A DNA stretch of 64,000 nucleotides, from the NCBI RefSeq assembly GCF_016026235.1, contig NZ_CP065613.1. One strand, written 5' to 3'. The translations under genes were made by a program, and so were the position numbers. Positions 11,574 through 17,150 of the stretch are shown here, in pieces; position 1 is the stretch's first letter, and every line of letters starts with the position of its first letter. The notes beneath the pieces were generated by a model. The model was not told the DNA's origin and made no database searches. It saw nothing but the letters and a program-made list of their open reading frames with translations. Source of the DNA: Escherichia coli. GTDB taxonomy: Bacteria > Pseudomonadota > Gammaproteobacteria > Enterobacterales > Enterobacteriaceae.

Positions 11574-11684
11574 TCTTTAGCCTCACACCGGATACTCTGT
11601 TATCCAAGAATGTTAAACATGAGAATCCAAAGTATCAAGATATTCTGTTACTTTAGTATCAGCAGCCATGAAAGGAGAAGAAAA
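11574..11684. promoter_or_regulatory. Divergent promoter/operator region of prophage immunity switch
   Basis: Spacer between cro-like and cI-like genes containing repeated TCCAAGAAT / TCCAAAGTAT and AGTATCA motifs and AT-rich -10-like hexamers. Confidence 0.4.
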
Positions 11685-12341
11685 ATGAAATCTTTAGGTG
11701 AACGGCTAATCAACGCACGACAAAAAGCTGGGTTAACGCAAGATGCGTTGGCTAAAAAAGCAGGGGTCACCAGAGTTGCAATCAGTAAAGCCGAGCAAGG
11801 CCTTACAAAAAGTTTCAACGGTGACACCCTTTTTAAAGTCGCAGCTGCACTGCAGTGTTCACCGCAGTGGCTTCAGAACGGAGATGAGAAAGGTAAGCAT
11901 TGGGAAAATAATGTTAAGAGTTGCCCCCAGAGGGACACAGCACACTCTTACCCTGTAATTAACTGGGTTCAGGCAGGATTATTCACAACTGCAGGTGATG
12001 ACTACAACATGTATGATCAGGATAACTGGAGGCATTCTGTAAAATACGCTGGTGAGAGGGGGTTCTGGCTGGAAGTGCACGGAGACTCAATGACTTCGCC
12101 TATAGGAATAACATTTCCTGAAGGAATGTCGATCCTTGTCAACCCAGATAAAGAAGTTTTTTCAGGGTGTTACGTCATTGCCAGAAAAAAATCCACCAAT
12201 GAAGCAACATTCAAAAAATATATTTCTGAAATGGGAAAGGCGTTTCTAAAGCCCCTTAATCCACAATACCCAATCATAGAAATGGACAATGATTGCGAAA
12301 TAGTAGGCGTTGTGGTTGATGCCAGATGGGATATTTTCTGA
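11685..12341 (+). CDS. Prophage repressor, cI/LexA-like (N-terminal HTH_XRE + C-terminal S24 peptidase domain)
   Basis: MKSLGERLINARQKAGLTQDALAKKAGVTRVAISKAEQG (HTH) and ...HGDSMTSP...ATFKKY... (Ser/Lys autocleavage dyad); SD AAAGGAG upstream. Confidence 0.8.
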   Translation: MKSLGERLINARQKAGLTQDALAKKAGVTRVAISKAEQGLTKSFNGDTLFKVAAALQCSPQWLQNGDEKGKHWENNVKSCPQRDTAHSYPVINWVQAGLFTTAGDDYNMYDQDNWRHSVKYAGERGFWLEVHGDSMTSPIGITFPEGMSILVNPDKEVFSGCYVIARKKSTNEATFKKYISEMGKAFLKPLNPQYPIIEMDNDCEIVGVVVDARWDIF

Positions 12342-12443
12342 CCAGATACAAAATACAAAAAGAAACCTAAGTATCAAAAACACTTGCAACACCTTGATAC
12401 CTTAGTTACCATAAAACAAAGTTCGTAACTGAGGTATCATCTC

Positions 12444-12893
12444 ATGATCAATAAAGCTACAACTCTTGACTGTCTCGAAGAACTGAAAAACCTCGGCAGC
12501 CTCATTACACTAATAGCAAAAGCAACGGCAGATGCTACGCTCTCTAGCGATATAGAGTCATGCGCAGGACTGGCATGGGATATGACAAATAGCATATCCA
12601 GAAAGCTATCGTCAGCAATGCTTTTACAGAACAAAAATTCTGCAATCAACAACCGCCTTCGCACCCAACGCGAAGCCTGCGGCTTAACAACAGCCGAACT
12701 CGCCAGGCTGCTCGATCTCGATGAAGAAATTATCATCCAGTGGGAGAGCGGAGAGTATGAACCAACTATCAGTATGCTTATCCCACTGGCAAATATTCTT
12801 GGCTGCGATCCGATGTGGCTGTTAACTGGTGAGGTTACTCCTCCGGAGCAACCAAAAAGTGAGGAGCAGCAACACCATGACGCATCTCAATAA
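12444..12893 (+). CDS. Second HTH_XRE-domain regulator (149 aa)
   Basis: C-terminal segment INNRLRTQREACGLTTAELARLLDLDEEIIIQWESGEYEPTISMLIPLANILGCDPMWLLTGE is a typical XRE helix-turn-helix. Confidence 0.6.
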   Translation: MINKATTLDCLEELKNLGSLITLIAKATADATLSSDIESCAGLAWDMTNSISRKLSSAMLLQNKNSAINNRLRTQREACGLTTAELARLLDLDEEIIIQWESGEYEPTISMLIPLANILGCDPMWLLTGEVTPPEQPKSEEQQHHDASQ

Positions 12894-14195: not shown

Positions 14196-14385
14196 GTGGG
14201 TCCACCAGCAGGCGTTGCTGGTCCTGCGGCGGTACAGATGCCGACGTATATTCCCGCATCGGATACAGCGCAACGGATATCTCAGTCTGAAGGTTAACCG
14301 TCGCTGGCGGCTGTTATCGAAAGACGACGGCCGGAACTGGGAAGTAATGAGTCATGAACGTTATTCGGGGGAAATAAAGAAATGA
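14167..14385 (+). CDS. Hypothetical basic prophage protein (72 aa)
   Basis: ORF overlapping previous gene end by 29 nt. Confidence 0.35.
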   Translation: MTLTATRIPEWVHQQALLVLRRYRCRRIFPHRIQRNGYLSLKVNRRWRLLSKDDGRNWEVMSHERYSGEIKK

Positions 14386-14527
14386 TCGACAACCGCACCG
14401 CCAGCGCCATTGACCAGGCATTACAGAAACATGATACACCCGTCGGCCCGTTATTTTTTGTAACACGCCACGAAAGAACAAAAAATGCCTCACCCGAAAA
14501 ACGGCAATTCGTTACCTGGCATTCTTT

Positions 14528-14773
14528 ATGACCACCCGCGCTTTTGAACGTTCAGGATTCCGACAACGCCATCCTGACAAGCGTTTTATCTTCAACGGGA
14601 ATGAGATATGGAAACGTGGAGAATCAACCACAGAGTATACCCGCGCACACCAGCGAACAATCAGACGACTGCGCAGACTCATCGCCAGGAAACAGTATAC
14701 AGAAAAATGGTTCAGAAAATATGACACATGGAGCGCCGGATATTACGAACTGATGGCAACAAAACCATTCTGA
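14528..14773 (+). CDS. Hypothetical basic prophage protein (81 aa)
   Basis: ORF in prophage left operon. Confidence 0.35.
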   Translation: MTTRAFERSGFRQRHPDKRFIFNGNEIWKRGESTTEYTRAHQRTIRRLRRLIARKQYTEKWFRKYDTWSAGYYELMATKPF

Positions 14774-14833
14774 CGTAAACGAAATTAACCATGACGCAAT
14801 TAAATAAGGCAAGCCGAATACATCAGGAGGACC

Positions 14834-15022
14834 ATGAACATTTATTTCAGAATAGTTATATCACTGGCAATTATCGCATGTATTTACGGATTAATCGTTC
14901 CGGCCCTCATATCAATGAAGGATACGGTAGCAGTGATTTCTGGCTTTGCTCTGGCGTGTCTGACCCCGCCCTGCATTTATGCCATTTATAAGGGTCTTTC
15001 TTTCCCCAGGAGGGAAAAATGA
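14834..15022 (+). CDS. Small two-TM membrane protein (62 aa), translationally coupled to SPFH gene
   Basis: MNIYFRIVISLAIIACIYGLIVPALISMKDTVAVISGFALACLTPPCIYAIYKGL; stop overlaps start of next gene (ATGA at 15019-15022). Confidence 0.55.
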   Translation: MNIYFRIVISLAIIACIYGLIVPALISMKDTVAVISGFALACLTPPCIYAIYKGLSFPRREK

Positions 15023-15828
15023 AAAAAACAATTGCGCTTGTTTTCGCGGTCAGTCTGGCTGTCTTCGGACTTGTAGGTTGCGATCGCGTTGAACCAGGTA
15101 ATGTGGGTATCAAAGTCAACAAACTGGGCGACGACAAAGGTGTCGGTGAAGTGGTCGGTGTTGGTCGCTACTGGACTGGCTGGAATACTGAAGTTTACAT
15201 TTTCCCGACCTTCAAGCAAATGAAGACCTACGATGAACCGTTCAGTTTCCAGATGAGTGACGGCACAACCATCGGCTATCACATCGGCGTGGCCTACAAA
15301 GTTGATCCATCCAAAGTTACCACGGTGTTTCAGACTTACCGCAAAGGCGTGGATGACATTACCAACACCGACCTGCGCCAGAAGATCGCCGACGCACTCA
15401 ATCGGCTGGCCAGCAAAATGACCACCGACAAATTTATTGACGGCGGCAAGTCTGAACTACTGGATGCCGCACTTAAAGACATTCAGGAAGAGATGACACC
15501 CATCGGCATTCAGGTAATGAGCCTCTCTTATGTAGGTAAACCGGAATACCCTCCAACCGTTATCGACAGCATTAACGCCAAAGTCACGGCAAACCAGAAA
15601 ACCCTGCAGCGCGAACAGGAAGTCAAGCAACGTGAAGCGGAGGCCAACATGCTACGTGCGGAAGCTGCCGGACAGGCTGATGCCATTCGAACAAAAGCCC
15701 AGGCAGAAGCCGATGCCATTCGTTTACGCGGCGAAGCTCTACGCCAGAACCCAGGCGTCATGGAGCTGGAAGCCATCAACAAGTGGAACGGTACACTGCC
15801 GCAATACATGACCAGTGGTGTGAGGTAG
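15019..15828 (+). CDS. SPFH/band-7 (prohibitin-like) lipoprotein; extreme C-terminus replaced by IS600 copy 2
   Basis: Lipoprotein signal MKKTIALVFAVSLAVFGLVGC; SPFH-like body with coiled-coil tail (QREAEANMLRAEAAGQADAIRTKAQAEADAIRLRGEA); IS inserted about 10 codons before predicted natural stop (original frame resumes at 17085 and stops at 17116). Confidence 0.65.
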   Translation: MKKTIALVFAVSLAVFGLVGCDRVEPGNVGIKVNKLGDDKGVGEVVGVGRYWTGWNTEVYIFPTFKQMKTYDEPFSFQMSDGTTIGYHIGVAYKVDPSKVTTVFQTYRKGVDDITNTDLRQKIADALNRLASKMTTDKFIDGGKSELLDAALKDIQEEMTPIGIQVMSLSYVGKPEYPPTVIDSINAKVTANQKTLQREQEVKQREAEANMLRAEAAGQADAIRTKAQAEADAIRLRGEALRQNPGVMELEAINKWNGTLPQYMTSGVR

Positions 15829-15884
15829 CCTGAGTTTAACGGACACTCCTTCCTGAAATAGAATGGCATCAGAAGGAGCTAATA

Positions 15885-16187
15885 ATGAGCAGAAAAACCC
15901 AACGTTACTCTAAAGAGTTCAAAGCCGAAGCTGTCAGAACGGTTCTTGAAAATCAACTTTCGATCAGTGAAGGCGCTTCCCGATTATCTCTTCCTGAAGG
16001 CACTTTAGGACAATGGGTTACCGCCGCCAGAAAAGGGCTCGGTACTCCTGGTTCCCGCACGGTGGCTGAACTGGAATCTGAAATTCTGCAACTGCGTAAG
16101 GCGTTAAATGAAGCTCGCCTTGAGCGAGATATATTAAAAAAAGCAACAGCGTATTTTGCACAGGAGTCGCTGAAAAATACGCGTTAA
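15885..16187 (+). CDS. IS600 OrfA
   Basis: 100-aa ORF, differs from copy 1 at residue 5 (T vs N). Confidence 0.85.
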   Translation: MSRKTQRYSKEFKAEAVRTVLENQLSISEGASRLSLPEGTLGQWVTAARKGLGTPGSRTVAELESEILQLRKALNEARLERDILKKATAYFAQESLKNTR

Positions 16188-16222
16188 TCGAACAATGGCG
16201 ACAACAATTTCCCATTGAAGCG

Positions 16223-17041
16223 ATGTGTCAGGTATTTGGTGTATCCAGGAGCGGTTATTACAACTGGGTACAGCATGAACCCTCAGACAGAAAACAAAGT
16301 GATGAGCGGCTAAAACTGGAGATTAAGGTGGCACATATCCGCACTCGCGAAACATATGGAACCCGGCGGCTCCAGACGGAGCTGGCAGAGAATGGCATCA
16401 TCGTTGGTCGTGACCGACTGGCACGTCTTCGTAAGGAGCTAAGGCTACGCTGTAAGCAGAAACGCAAGTTCAGAGCGACTACGAACCCGAACCACAATCT
16501 GCCAGTTGCGCCAAATCTGCTGAACCAGACGTTCGCTCCTACAGCACCAAATCAGGTCTGGGTGGCGGACCTGACGTATGTTGCCACACAGGAGGGATGG
16601 TTGTACCTCGCTGGCATCAAAGATGTTTATACGTGCGAAATTGTCGGCTACGCCATGGGAGAGCGCATGACAAAAGAGCTGACAGGTAAAGCCCTGTTTA
16701 TGGCGCTCAGGAGCCAGCGCCCACCTGCCGGGCTAATCCACCACTCTGATCGAGGTTCACAGTACTGCGCATACGATTACCGGGTCATACAGGAGCAGTC
16801 TGGTCTGAAAACATCAATGTCGCGTAAAGGTAACTGTTACGACAACGCTCCGATGGAAAGCTTCTGGGGAACGCTGAAAAATGAGAGCCTGAGCCACTAT
16901 CGTTTTAATAACCGGGATGAAGCCATCTCAGTAATACGGGAATACATTGAGATTTTCTACAATCGTCAGCGTCGTCACTCTCGTCTGGGGAATATCTCCC
17001 CGGCAGCCTTCAGGGAAAAATATCATCAGATGGCTGCTTAA
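16223..17041 (+). CDS. IS600 OrfB
   Basis: 272-aa DDE transposase component, identical to copy 1. Confidence 0.85.
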   Translation: MCQVFGVSRSGYYNWVQHEPSDRKQSDERLKLEIKVAHIRTRETYGTRRLQTELAENGIIVGRDRLARLRKELRLRCKQKRKFRATTNPNHNLPVAPNLLNQTFAPTAPNQVWVADLTYVATQEGWLYLAGIKDVYTCEIVGYAMGERMTKELTGKALFMALRSQRPPAGLIHHSDRGSQYCAYDYRVIQEQSGLKTSMSRKGNCYDNAPMESFWGTLKNESLSHYRFNNRDEAISVIREYIEIFYNRQRRHSRLGNISPAAFREKYHQMAA

Positions 17042-17150
17042 AAAAAGAACAAATGGTAGTGTCCGCTATTGCCAGTACACCTCAGTGCCAATACACCATT
17101 TATCCAGATTAAATAACTTATATGCCCGGCAGGCCGCCGGGCTAAGGGAA

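What the first reader, a model, noticed from the sequence alone, without database searches (positions are those of the whole stretch)
14834..15850. Prophage-encoded small membrane protein plus SPFH/band-7 lipoprotein pair at the end of the left operon
A 62-aa two-TM protein is translationally coupled (ATGA overlap) to a lipoprotein with an SPFH domain and coiled-coil tail, reminiscent of stomatin-like/NfeD-like pairs but much reduced. It is in the early-left operon where lambdoid phages usually carry recombination or exclusion functions, so a membrane-associated superinfection-exclusion or abortive-infection role is plausible. IS600 copy 2 replaces only the last about 10 codons, so it may still be functional.
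Basis: inference. Interest (0 to 1): 0.45.

Follow-up and report, generated by a model that had tools for sequence, protein, structure and literature searches.

The report
Phage SPFH lipoprotein with membrane partner
This is an IS-truncated copy, in a decaying prophage, of a two-gene module carried by hundreds of virulent and temperate phages: a small inner-membrane hairpin protein plus an exported, lipid-anchored HflK/C-like protein whose function nobody has tested.

Summary
A 62-aa two-helix membrane protein (14834-15022) overlaps by ATGA a 269-aa lipoprotein (15019-15828) that has a Band_7/SPFH domain (Pfam E 5.8e-31). Its predicted fold is a complete cage-type SPFH subunit, closest to HflK/HflC.

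IS600 (15821-17084) replaces the last 9 codons. Those codons encode a C-terminal motif present in 103 of 106 homologues, so this copy is probably impaired. The prophage is also decaying: the upstream gene is frameshifted and the integrase is split by another IS600.

The small protein is not NfeD. It is nevertheless a real, deeply conserved partner:
- it is adjacent in 78 of 79 close viral loci;
- it is present in distant phages;
- it is fused in frame to the SPFH protein in about 18 of 142 distant family representatives;
- a Pro and a Ser at the outer end of helix 1 are conserved.

The family occurs in 414 phage records. These include virulent N4-type, Vequintavirinae, phiCbK-like and crAss-like phages, always among early or middle genes. 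That argues for a lytic-cycle membrane function rather than a prophage-specific defence gene.

I infer a cage on the periplasmic face of the inner membrane. Superinfection exclusion is the leading guess and FtsH modulation the main rival; neither is tested. No defence-system model matches, and I found no functional study.

The parts
14825..14830 (+). Shine-Dalgarno AGGAGG of the small membrane-protein gene
   Evidence: Read directly from the sequence, 4 nt before the ATG at 14834.
14834..15022 (+). 62-aa two-TM hairpin partner. Predicted topology is N-in/C-in, with the periplasmic loop at S27-M-K-D30 and conserved Pro23 and Ser27.
   Evidence: ORF. PHROG 1130 at E 7e-24. No Pfam match. Helices 2-26 and 31-53 in the AF2 model. 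P23 and S27 are at least 90% conserved across 26 pairs and fusions. 28 database homologues.
15008..15013 (+). Shine-Dalgarno AGGAGG of the SPFH gene, lying inside the end of the partner gene
   Evidence: Read directly from the sequence.
15019..15828 (+). SPFH lipoprotein ORF as it now stands: 269 aa. Codons 1-267 (15019-15819) are native; codons 268-269 and the stop TAG at 15826-15828 come from the junction and the IS.
   Evidence: This exact 269-aa sequence is already in NCBI as 'SPFH domain-containing protein [Escherichia coli]'.
15019..15081 (+). Lipoprotein signal peptide with lipobox L-V-G-C. The Cys21 codon is 15079-15081 and Asp is at +2.
   Evidence: Read from the sequence. Cys21 is at least 90% conserved in 106 homologues and invariant in A2 and A3.
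15085..15645 (+). Band_7/SPFH domain (residues 23-209)
   Evidence: Pfam PF01145 at E 5.8e-31. Beta-rich SPFH fold in residues 21-176 of the AF2 model. Foldseek top hits are HflK, prohibitin, HflC, erlin and stomatin at E 4e-14 to 1e-11.
15553..15783 (+). Wall helix (residues 179-243) and cap helix (residues 245-255), as in cage-forming SPFH proteins
   Evidence: AF2 secondary structure. The architecture is compared with flotillin in PMC11260169.
15818..15820 (.). Left copy of the 3-bp target duplication GTG
   Evidence: Window compared with uninterrupted phiP27.
15821..17084 (+). IS600 (IS3 family), 1264 bp. orfA is 15885-16187 and orfB is 16223-17041.
   Evidence: Self-BLAST finds three copies of at least 99.7% identity. 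NCBIfam IS3 transposase scores 334 bits against a cut-off of 160.
17085..17087 (.). Right copy of the target duplication GTG
17087..17116 (+). Displaced 3' end of the SPFH gene: codons for A-N-T-P-F-I-Q-I-K plus the stop
   Evidence: Read. Colinear with phiP27 L05.

Best explanation
**What it is (shown).** This is a conserved two-gene phage module.
- Gene 1 encodes a roughly 60-aa inner-membrane hairpin.
- Gene 2 is translationally coupled to it and encodes a lipoprotein. Its mature part, from Cys21, is a complete HflK/C-type SPFH subunit: SPFH domain, a 65-residue wall helix, a cap helix and a short conserved C-terminal segment.

**How it most likely works (inferred).**
- The lipoprotein is exported and lipidated and stays on the periplasmic face of the inner membrane.
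- There, like every full-length SPFH protein solved so far, it assembles into a closed multimeric cage.
- The cage is held to the membrane by its N-terminal lipid and by the hairpin partner, through that partner's conserved Pro/Ser periplasmic turn. It fences off a patch of inner membrane.

**When and why (inferred).**
- The pair is expressed with early or middle genes during lytic growth, not as a lysogen-expressed moron.
- My leading guess for the pay-off is protection of the infected cell's inner membrane at the place where incoming phages insert their DNA-delivery machinery. That would be superinfection exclusion during the lytic cycle.

**This copy.** It is a remnant. IS600 has removed the conserved C-terminal segment that should help close the cage, and the prophage around it is decaying.
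For: **Domain and fold**
- Pfam Band_7 at E 5.8e-31.
- AF2 mean pLDDT 93.6, with SPFH 21-176, helix 179-243 and helix 245-255.
- Foldseek top hits are full-length cage subunits: HflK 7vhq_E at 4e-14, then prohibitin, HflC, erlin, stomatin, QmcA, flotillin and major vault protein.
- The best sequence match among solved structures is HflK.

**Export**
- Signal peptide plus lipobox, with a near-invariant Cys.
- Some homologues have an uncleaved N-terminal TM helix in place of the lipobox.

**The partner is real**
- The pair overlaps in the EIEC prophage, phiP27, P2-like P88, a P1-like phage and HK97-like Fraca.
- 78 of 79 IMG/VR loci carry it.
- Distant pairs, with the SPFH protein only 36-48% identical, are L007, L010, L012, phi1026b and 4MG.
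- About 18 of 142 family representatives are in-frame fusions of partner and SPFH; L006 is one continuous ORF.
- P23 and S27 are at least 90% conserved.

**Lytic-cycle role**
- 414 phage records carry the family, including virulent Schitoviridae, Vequintavirinae, phiCbK-like and crAss-like phages.
- In a phage of the species Enquatrovirus N4 the pair directly follows RNAP2, the decoration protein and an ORF annotated as a superinfection exclusion protein.
- In P88 it lies between cox and the replication gene. In lambdoid phages it lies in the left operon.
- No promoter-like or terminator-like site flanks it here.

**Selection and damage**
- dN/dS is 0.012-0.017.
- The C-terminal motif is present in 103 of 106 homologues.
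- The neighbouring gene is frameshifted and the integrase is split by IS600.
Against: - No experiment on any member was found.
- Oligomerisation, membrane location and contact with the partner are all inferred. The tools give no multimer model and no coordinates.
- The +2 residue after the Cys is Asp only in the enterobacterial temperate-phage copies. It is Glu in 4MG, Tyr in N4-type phages and Ser or Thr in many others. Inner-membrane retention is therefore not secure for the whole family.
- Fusions that keep the lipobox could be cleaved, which would free the lipoprotein to go elsewhere.
- Exclusion proteins in arms races usually vary. This mature protein is almost invariant across unrelated phages, which fits binding to a conserved host component at least as well.
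- Bruynoghevirus U47 has the SPFH gene without this partner.
- Early timing is inferred from gene position, not measured.
Confidence: 0.5

Rival explanations
1. HflK/C mimic that acts on FtsH. The phage cage competes with, or replaces, host HflK/C around the periplasmic domain of FtsH and re-tunes FtsH proteolysis. In temperate phages that would affect CII/CIII-type lysis-lysogeny factors. In any phage it would affect membrane-protein turnover or LpxC.
For: - HflK and HflC are the closest cellular relatives by NCBIfam, by PDB sequence search and by fold.
- They share the periplasmic orientation.
- The near-invariance of the mature protein fits a conserved host target.
- In lambda, the FtsH inhibitor cIII lies in the same leftward early operon (my own knowledge).
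- The HflK/C-lysogeny link has been raised for the Bruynoghevirus homologues (PMC8540360).
Against: - Scores against the HflK and HflC models are far below the curated cut-offs: 22.9 against 159.4 and 25.6 against 134.4. Identity to HflK in the fold alignment is only 17%.
- The family is common in virulent phages that make no lysogeny decision.
- It has its own dedicated membrane partner, which suggests the cage is built around that partner rather than around FtsH.
- Nothing here tests FtsH binding.
Confidence: 0.2
2. One reading: a prophage-expressed defence gene pair that protects the lysogen from other phages, by superinfection exclusion or abortive infection.
For: - It is membrane-located, it sits in a prophage, and about 9% of complete E. 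coli genomes carry it (509 of 5426).
- Lipoprotein and small-membrane-protein exclusion factors are known: T5 Llp, phi80 Cor, TP-J34 Ltp, T4 Imm and Sp, and P22 SieA (PMC3952083 and PMC10461980 appeared; the others are my own knowledge).
- The SPFH gene has a somewhat higher G+C (0.50-0.53) than its neighbours (0.39-0.46).
Against: - No match to any of the 5027 PADLOC models.
- No promoter-like or terminator-like sites bracket the pair. It lies inside the early-left operon, which a repressor would normally silence.
- The same pair occurs in strictly virulent phages.
- Purifying selection is very strong rather than diversifying.
Confidence: 0.12
3. Lysogenic-conversion or virulence lipoprotein. 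The protein would be released on vesicles and sensed by host TLR1/2, as reported for the prophage-encoded HflK/C-like PM0222 of Pasteurella multocida.
For: - PMC9872710 reports that a prophage HflK/C-like protein is secreted in outer-membrane vesicles, activates TLR1/2 and contributes to virulence in mice.
- The present gene occurs in Shigella/EIEC and STEC prophages.
Against: - Homology between PM0222 and this family was not tested.
- The family is widespread in phages of plant, soil, aquatic and gut bacteria, and in virulent phages.
- Any triacylated lipoprotein stimulates TLR2, so that activity need not be the selected function.
Confidence: 0.05
4. Lysis-timing or membrane-stabilising device. 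The cage would sequester the hairpin, which has the size and topology of a class II holin or antiholin, or would reinforce the inner membrane until programmed lysis. This links to lysis inhibition in N4-type phages.
For: - The partner is a 60-70-aa N-in/C-in two-TM protein with a charged C-terminus, which is the general shape of class II holins (my own knowledge).
- N4 shows lysis inhibition, and both its trigger and its exclusion system are unidentified (PMC12642591).
Against: - The pair is never in the lysis cassette in the loci examined. It sits with early or middle genes.
- The N4 rapid-lysis mutant hunt does not mention gp18, gp19 or gp20.
- There is no sequence match to holin families in Pfam or PHROGs.
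Confidence: 0.1

Closest known systems
HflK/HflC of E. coli (24-subunit SPFH cage around FtsH; PDB 7vhq, 7wi3, 9cz2)
   Same: - It is the best match by sequence among solved structures and by fold.
- It shares the SPFH domain, long wall helix and cap helix.
- In both, the SPFH domain is on the periplasmic side of the inner membrane.
   Different: - The phage protein is anchored by a lipid, not by an N-terminal TM helix.
- There is one SPFH gene rather than a K/C heteromer.
- It has a dedicated 2-TM partner.
- Only 17% identity to HflK in the fold alignment, and scores far below the NCBIfam cut-offs.
- FtsH binding is unknown.
SPFH-NfeD operons (QmcA-YbbJ, PDB 8z5g; YqiK-YqiJ; archaeal stomatin-STOPP)
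   Same: - A small membrane-protein gene lies immediately upstream of, and is coupled to, an SPFH gene.
- QmcA is among the fold hits at E 2.4e-8.
   Different: - The partner has no NfeD/OB-fold domain and no Pfam match at all.
- The SPFH domain is exported here, but is cytoplasmic in QmcA and YqiK.
Flotillin cage (PDB 9bq2)
   Same: - Attachment to the membrane is through covalent lipid rather than a TM helix.
- The wall helix is Ala/Glu-rich.
- The order cap helix then C-terminal strand is the same (PMC11260169).
   Different: - Flotillin is eukaryotic, cytoplasmic and a heteromer, with a much longer wall helix.
- It ranks lower among the fold hits, at E 2.4e-9.
Phage membrane exclusion proteins (T4 Imm and Sp, P22 SieA, TP-J34 Ltp, T5 Llp)
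   Same: - Small membrane or lipoprotein products.
- T4 Imm/Sp and T5 Llp are made early.
- Imm, Sp, SieA and Ltp act at the cytoplasmic membrane, where DNA enters.
   Different: - No sequence or domain relationship was detected.
- Exclusion by the SPFH pair has not been tested.
PM0222 of Pasteurella multocida (prophage HflK/C-like virulence factor, PMC9872710)
   Same: It is encoded by a lambda-like prophage and described as an SPFH/HflK/C-like protein.
   Different: - Its sequence relationship to this family was not checked here.
- Its reported role, TLR1/2 activation, concerns the animal host and not the phage cycle.

Membership tests
SPFH / Band 7 superfamily (Pfam PF01145) | Significant match to the Band_7 profile | tested here: met
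   E 5.8e-31, residues 23-209, covering the whole model 2-176 of 176.
SPFH / Band 7 superfamily (Pfam PF01145) | SPFH alpha/beta fold followed by a long wall helix and a cap helix | tested here: met
   AF2 pLDDT 93.6 with the elements listed. There are 64 PDB matches at E <= 0.001, and the 50 listed are all SPFH-family proteins or major vault protein.
SPFH / Band 7 superfamily (Pfam PF01145) | Assembly into a ring or cage on a membrane | not testable with these tools
   Only monomer prediction is available. Needs native PAGE or cryo-EM, or a multimer prediction.
HflK / HflC (NCBIfam TIGR01933, TIGR01932) | Score above the curated family cut-off | tested here: not met
   HflK 22.9 bits against 159.4; HflC 25.6 bits against 134.4.
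HflK / HflC (NCBIfam TIGR01933, TIGR01932) | N-terminal transmembrane anchor | tested here: not met
   The N-terminus is a cleavable lipoprotein signal peptide with the lipobox LVGC. The Cys is near-invariant.
HflK / HflC (NCBIfam TIGR01933, TIGR01932) | Binds and encloses FtsH | not testable with these tools
   No interaction data. Needs pull-down or cryo-EM.
SPFH-NfeD operon pair | Partner carries an NfeD domain (PF01957, C-terminal OB-fold) | tested here: not met
   No Pfam family matches the 62-aa protein even at E <= 10. Its 62 residues are taken up by two TM helices.
SPFH-NfeD operon pair | Small membrane-protein gene immediately upstream of, and coupled to, the SPFH gene | tested here: met
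   ATGA overlap here. A 4-nt overlap in 52 and a 20-nt overlap in 25 of 78 viral loci.
Bacterial lipoprotein (Lgt/LspA substrate) | Signal peptide ending in a lipobox [LVI][ASTVI][GAS]C | tested here: met
   The N-terminus reads MKK, then a hydrophobic stretch, then L-V-G-C21. Actual lipidation is not testable here.
Bacterial lipoprotein (Lgt/LspA substrate) | Inner-membrane retention signal (Asp at +2 in E. coli) | tested here: inconclusive
   Asp22 is present in this copy and in the other temperate enterobacterial copies. The residue is Glu in 4MG, Tyr in N4-type phages and variable elsewhere.
Known anti-phage defence systems (PADLOC-DB v2) | Match to any component model | tested here: not met
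   No family matched either protein at E <= 0.1.
IS3 family / IS600 | IS3 transposase above cut-off, orfA and orfB, TG...CA ends, 3-bp target duplication | tested here: met
   334 bits against a cut-off of 160. 1264 bp, three near-identical copies. GTG duplication. The name IS600 rests on my own knowledge.

The most novel reading that the evidence does not exclude
The hairpin plus SPFH lipoprotein is a widespread, so far unrecognised phage organelle: a periplasm-facing SPFH cage built on the infected cell's inner membrane. It would block or trap the DNA-delivery machinery of later-arriving phages. On this reading it would be the uncharacterised superinfection-exclusion system of N4-type phages, and possibly the input to their lysis inhibition. 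The in-frame fusions that keep the lipobox would be precursors cut by signal peptidase II into the two partners.
Probability: 0.2. Interest if true: 0.75.

Novelty: new variant of a known kind. Interest (0 to 1): 0.42.

Why it matters
SPFH proteins (HflK/C, stomatin, prohibitin, flotillin) are now known to form membrane cages, but what bacterial ones are for is mostly unclear.

Phages carry their own version in at least 414 sequenced genomes. These include a phage assigned to the model species N4 and about 9% of complete E. coli genomes. It has a lipid anchor, an outward-facing orientation and a dedicated two-helix partner unlike the known NfeD partners. No function has been assigned.

A gene pair kept almost unchanged across P1-like, P2-like, lambdoid and HK97-like phages must do something important during infection.

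If it proves to be an exclusion device or an FtsH modulator, it would give a simple genetic handle on what an SPFH cage does. It might also fill the gap noted for N4, whose exclusion system has not been characterised.

For this particular window the practical message is smaller. The copy is an IS-damaged remnant in a degraded prophage and is already annotated in public databases.

Tried and rejected
- **NfeD identity of the partner.** Rejected: no Pfam match.
- **Membership of a known defence system.** Rejected for PADLOC. Newer catalogues could not be searched.
- **Own promoter and terminator (moron signature).** None found by the consensus scan. G+C is only mildly higher than in the neighbours.
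- **Alternative reading frame.** The 66-aa ORF at 14791-14991 in another frame has no TM helices. The 62-aa frame is preferred because it matches PHROG 1130 and has many database homologues.
- **Spanin-like pair (inner-membrane protein plus lipoprotein from overlapping genes).** Considered and rejected. The lipoprotein has an SPFH fold and no C-terminal TM, and the pair is never in a lysis cassette.
- **Virion component.** Only 3 peptides were found in a Vi01-like phage proteome (PMC10892097), so this was not pursued.
- **Literature.** Seven full-text searches found no functional study of a phage SPFH lipoprotein. The hits for 'prohibitin' in PMC11879866 and 'band 7' in PMC3556154 were false.
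- **Locus search with the 106-sequence alignment.** It failed for lack of a conserved stretch. The 11-sequence alignment worked but returned only close relatives of 91-100% identity, so the 78-of-79 count is not independent evidence.
- **AF2 on the concatenated pair.** It gave helices at pLDDT of about 80 but no contact information, so it neither proves nor disproves a direct interface.
- **Homology to P. multocida PM0222.** Not tested.
Full report
**1. The observation**

The two ORFs are as described.
- A 62-aa ORF at 14834-15022 ends in TGA.
- That TGA overlaps the ATG of a 269-aa ORF at 15019-15828, giving ATGA.
- Both are preceded by AGGAGG, at 14825-14830 and 15008-15013.

The large protein begins with a lipoprotein signal peptide, MKKTIALVFAVSLAVFGLVGC. 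Pfam Band_7 matches residues 23-209 at E 5.8e-31. PHROGs files it under phrog_200 'lipoprotein' (E 1.7e-112) and files the small protein under phrog_1130 'membrane protein' (E 7e-24).

The ORF ends inside an IS3-family element.
- The element is 1264 bp, at 15821-17084.
- Two further copies of at least 99.7% identity lie at 4754-6017 and 19413-20676.
- I call it IS600 from my own knowledge of that element.

Comparison with uninterrupted phiP27 shows a clean insertion, with a GTG target duplication at 15818-15820 and 17085-17087. The native C-terminus ...TSGANTPFIQVK is replaced by ...TSGVR*. The displaced last codons survive at 17087-17116.

**2. What the large protein is**

An AlphaFold2 model built on 106 homologues has mean pLDDT 93.6. 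It contains:
- an SPFH domain, residues 21-176;
- one 65-residue helix, 179-243;
- a short helix, 245-255;
- a low-confidence tail, 256-276.

Foldseek against the PDB returns full-length cage-forming SPFH subunits. HflK is first (7vhq_E, E 4e-14), followed by prohibitin, HflC, erlin, stomatin, QmcA, flotillin and the major vault protein. By sequence, HflK is also the best solved relative (E 5e-4).

NCBIfam gives only sub-threshold HflC and HflK matches: 25.6 and 22.9 bits against cut-offs of 134 and 159. So the protein is a member of the SPFH superfamily with the complete cage-subunit architecture. It is HflK/C-like, but it is not HflK or HflC.

Because it carries a signal peptide and a lipobox, the SPFH domain must be outside the cytoplasm. 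That is the HflK/C orientation and the opposite of QmcA and YqiK.
- Asp at +2 predicts retention in the inner membrane in E. coli. That rule comes from established knowledge of Lol sorting.
- This residue is not conserved across the family.
- Some homologues replace the lipobox with a plain N-terminal TM helix, which supports an inner-membrane location.

**3. The small protein is a genuine partner, but not NfeD**

It has no Pfam match, even at E <= 10. It consists of two helices, 2-26 and 31-53. The positive charges on its two ends suggest both lie in the cytoplasm, leaving a four-residue periplasmic turn.

The same kind of ORF abuts or overlaps the SPFH gene in the following:
- an EIEC prophage, phiP27 (where it is unannotated), P2-like P88, a P1-like phage and HK97-like Fraca;
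- 78 of 79 close IMG/VR loci;
- distant metagenomic phages whose SPFH proteins are only 36-43% identical: L007, L010 and L012;
- Burkholderia phi1026b, Erwinia N4-like Fifi011, phage Cyrano and a phage of the species Enquatrovirus N4;
- phage 4MG, where one gene intervenes.

Among 142 full-length representatives of 50%-identity clusters, about 18 carry the hairpin fused in frame to the N-terminus of the SPFH protein. One was confirmed as a single ORF on its contig (L006).

In an alignment of 8 concatenated pairs and 18 fusions, Pro23 and Ser27 of the hairpin are at least 90% conserved. These sit at the outer end of helix 1, in the motif P-x-[LM]-[IVM]-S. The lipobox Cys is invariant even in the fusions.

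Pseudomonas Bruynoghevirus U47 lacks this partner.

**4. Selection**

The mature SPFH part is almost invariant across unrelated phage types.
- dN/dS is 0.012-0.017, with dS from 0.44 to saturation.
- The window copy has no amino-acid difference from its closest intact relative over 247 codons, despite pS of 0.23.
- The signal peptide and the hairpin vary much more; the hairpin's dN/dS is about 0.2.

**5. Distribution and timing**

Of 5426 complete E. coli genomes, 509 have the locus, and 172 of the 595 matches are on plasmids. Some of those plasmid copies may sit on P1-like phage-plasmids (my inference), since P1-like phages carry the pair.

tblastn finds the family in 414 of 50,697 phage records. 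These include:
- virulent Schitoviridae (N4-type);
- Vequintavirinae (4MG);
- phiCbK-like, crAss-like, Lak and jumbo phages;
- even a Halorubrum virus.

Wherever I looked, the pair sits among early or middle genes:
- in lambdoids, in the leftward operon between the repressor region and xis-int;
- in P88, between cox and the replication gene;
- in a P1-like phage, between the methyltransferase and ban;
- in the N4-species phage, just after RNA polymerase 2, the decoration protein and an ORF annotated as a superinfection exclusion protein;
- in 4MG, Fifi011 and the metagenomic contigs, next to nucleotide-metabolism genes and RtcB or NADAR genes.

No promoter-like or terminator-like site brackets the pair in the window. 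This pattern points to a function in the lytic cycle common to virulent and temperate phages. It does not point to a gene expressed from the prophage for the benefit of the lysogen.

**6. Mechanism**

*Shown:*
- the SPFH cage-subunit fold;
- the export signal and lipobox;
- a co-inherited, sometimes fused, two-helix partner;
- very strong purifying selection;
- early or middle gene context.

*Inferred:*
- The protein forms a closed oligomeric cage on the periplasmic face of the inner membrane. It is tethered by its lipid, as flotillin is by acylation (PMC11260169), and by the hairpin.
- What the fenced-off membrane patch is for is not known.

I rank exclusion of superinfecting phages during lytic growth first. 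The cage sits where incoming phages must cross the inner membrane, it is made early, and there is precedent in T4 Imm and Sp, P22 SieA and the Ltp lipoprotein. A recent preprint states that the N4 exclusion system has not been characterised (PMC12642591).

Modulation of FtsH as an HflK/C mimic is the main rival. It fits the extreme conservation better. It has also been suggested for the Pseudomonas homologues, whose authors note that the role 'is still not clear' (PMC8540360).

Three further readings are less likely, for the reasons given under each rival:
- a lysis-timing role;
- a lysogen-defence role;
- a virulence role like that of P. multocida PM0222 (PMC9872710).

**7. State of this copy**

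The 9 residues removed by IS600 include a motif aligned in 103 of 106 homologues: Pro271 in 63, hydrophobic residues at 272, 273 and 275 in roughly 85-95% of sequences, and Lys or Arg at 276 in 74.

The motif follows the cap helix. That is the position of the strand that forms the beta-barrel closing the flotillin cage. Loss of it probably weakens or abolishes assembly; this is an inference.

The surrounding prophage is degenerating.
- The 130-aa gene just upstream has a 1-nt deletion in an A-run near 14480.
- The integrase is split by the third IS600 copy.

The exact truncated protein is already in NCBI as 'SPFH domain-containing protein [Escherichia coli]'.

**8. Verdict**

The element is a member of a known superfamily, in a variant that has not been characterised: phage-encoded, lipid-anchored, periplasm-facing and paired with a non-NfeD hairpin partner.

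The window's copy is an ordinary IS-damaged remnant. The family behind it is a worthwhile experimental target.

Noticed in passing
window 14382-14773: The gene just upstream of the pair is a single 130-aa ORF in the EIEC prophage (L001 5983-6375). Here a 1-nt deletion in an A-run near 14480 splits it into 49-aa and 81-aa ORFs. It is a second inactivating lesion in the same operon.
   Followed up: yes
window 18253-20862: The phiP27-type integrase gene is interrupted near its 3' end by the third IS600 copy (19413-20676). The rest of the gene and the att-proximal sequence resume at 20677-20862. The prophage is probably unable to excise.
   Followed up: partly
window 4754-6017, 15821-17084, 19413-20676: Three IS600 copies of at least 99.7% identity, all in the same orientation, lie within 16 kb of one prophage. 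Recombination between them could delete the segments in between, including the SPFH pair.
   Followed up: no
L006 8001-9149; proteins P0152, P0158, P0160, P0163, P0167, P0173, P0174, P0180, P0195, P0197, P0200 and others: In natural in-frame fusions of the hairpin and the SPFH protein, the lipobox Cys is still invariant. This suggests a precursor that is lipidated and cut internally by signal peptidase II into the two partners.
   Followed up: partly
L006 6701-7924, L007 52-1224 and 5425-5862, L096 3160-4392, L093 3658-4164: RtcB RNA ligase and NADAR genes recur near the SPFH gene in unrelated virulent or metagenomic phages. The pair may travel with early host-takeover or counter-defence gene clusters.
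   Followed up: no
L094 492-1241 (Erwinia phage Fifi011 gp59): An ORF annotated 'CLP protease' lies three genes upstream of the hairpin-SPFH pair. This recalls the ClpP-like protease domain of long NfeD/STOPP partners of archaeal stomatins. I did not check whether the association recurs.
   Followed up: no
L098 1913-2227 (phage of species Enquatrovirus N4, locus tag AC3HA13_180): The ORF directly upstream of the pair is annotated, by similarity to phage OLB145, as a superinfection exclusion protein. It is soluble-looking and acidic. I did not trace the basis of that annotation.
   Followed up: no
L004 and 25 IMG/VR loci (for example L022, L040): In P1-like phages the hairpin ORF is unannotated and overlaps the SPFH start by 20 nt rather than 4. 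In phiP27 (L002) it is likewise unannotated.
   Followed up: yes
window 11610-12893: Two consecutive HTH genes lie on the same strand as the left operon. The first is a cI-like repressor with a LexA/S24 autoprotease half (11610-12341). The second is a DicA-like 149-aa protein (12444-12893). The position of the early-left promoter relative to them is unresolved.
   Followed up: partly
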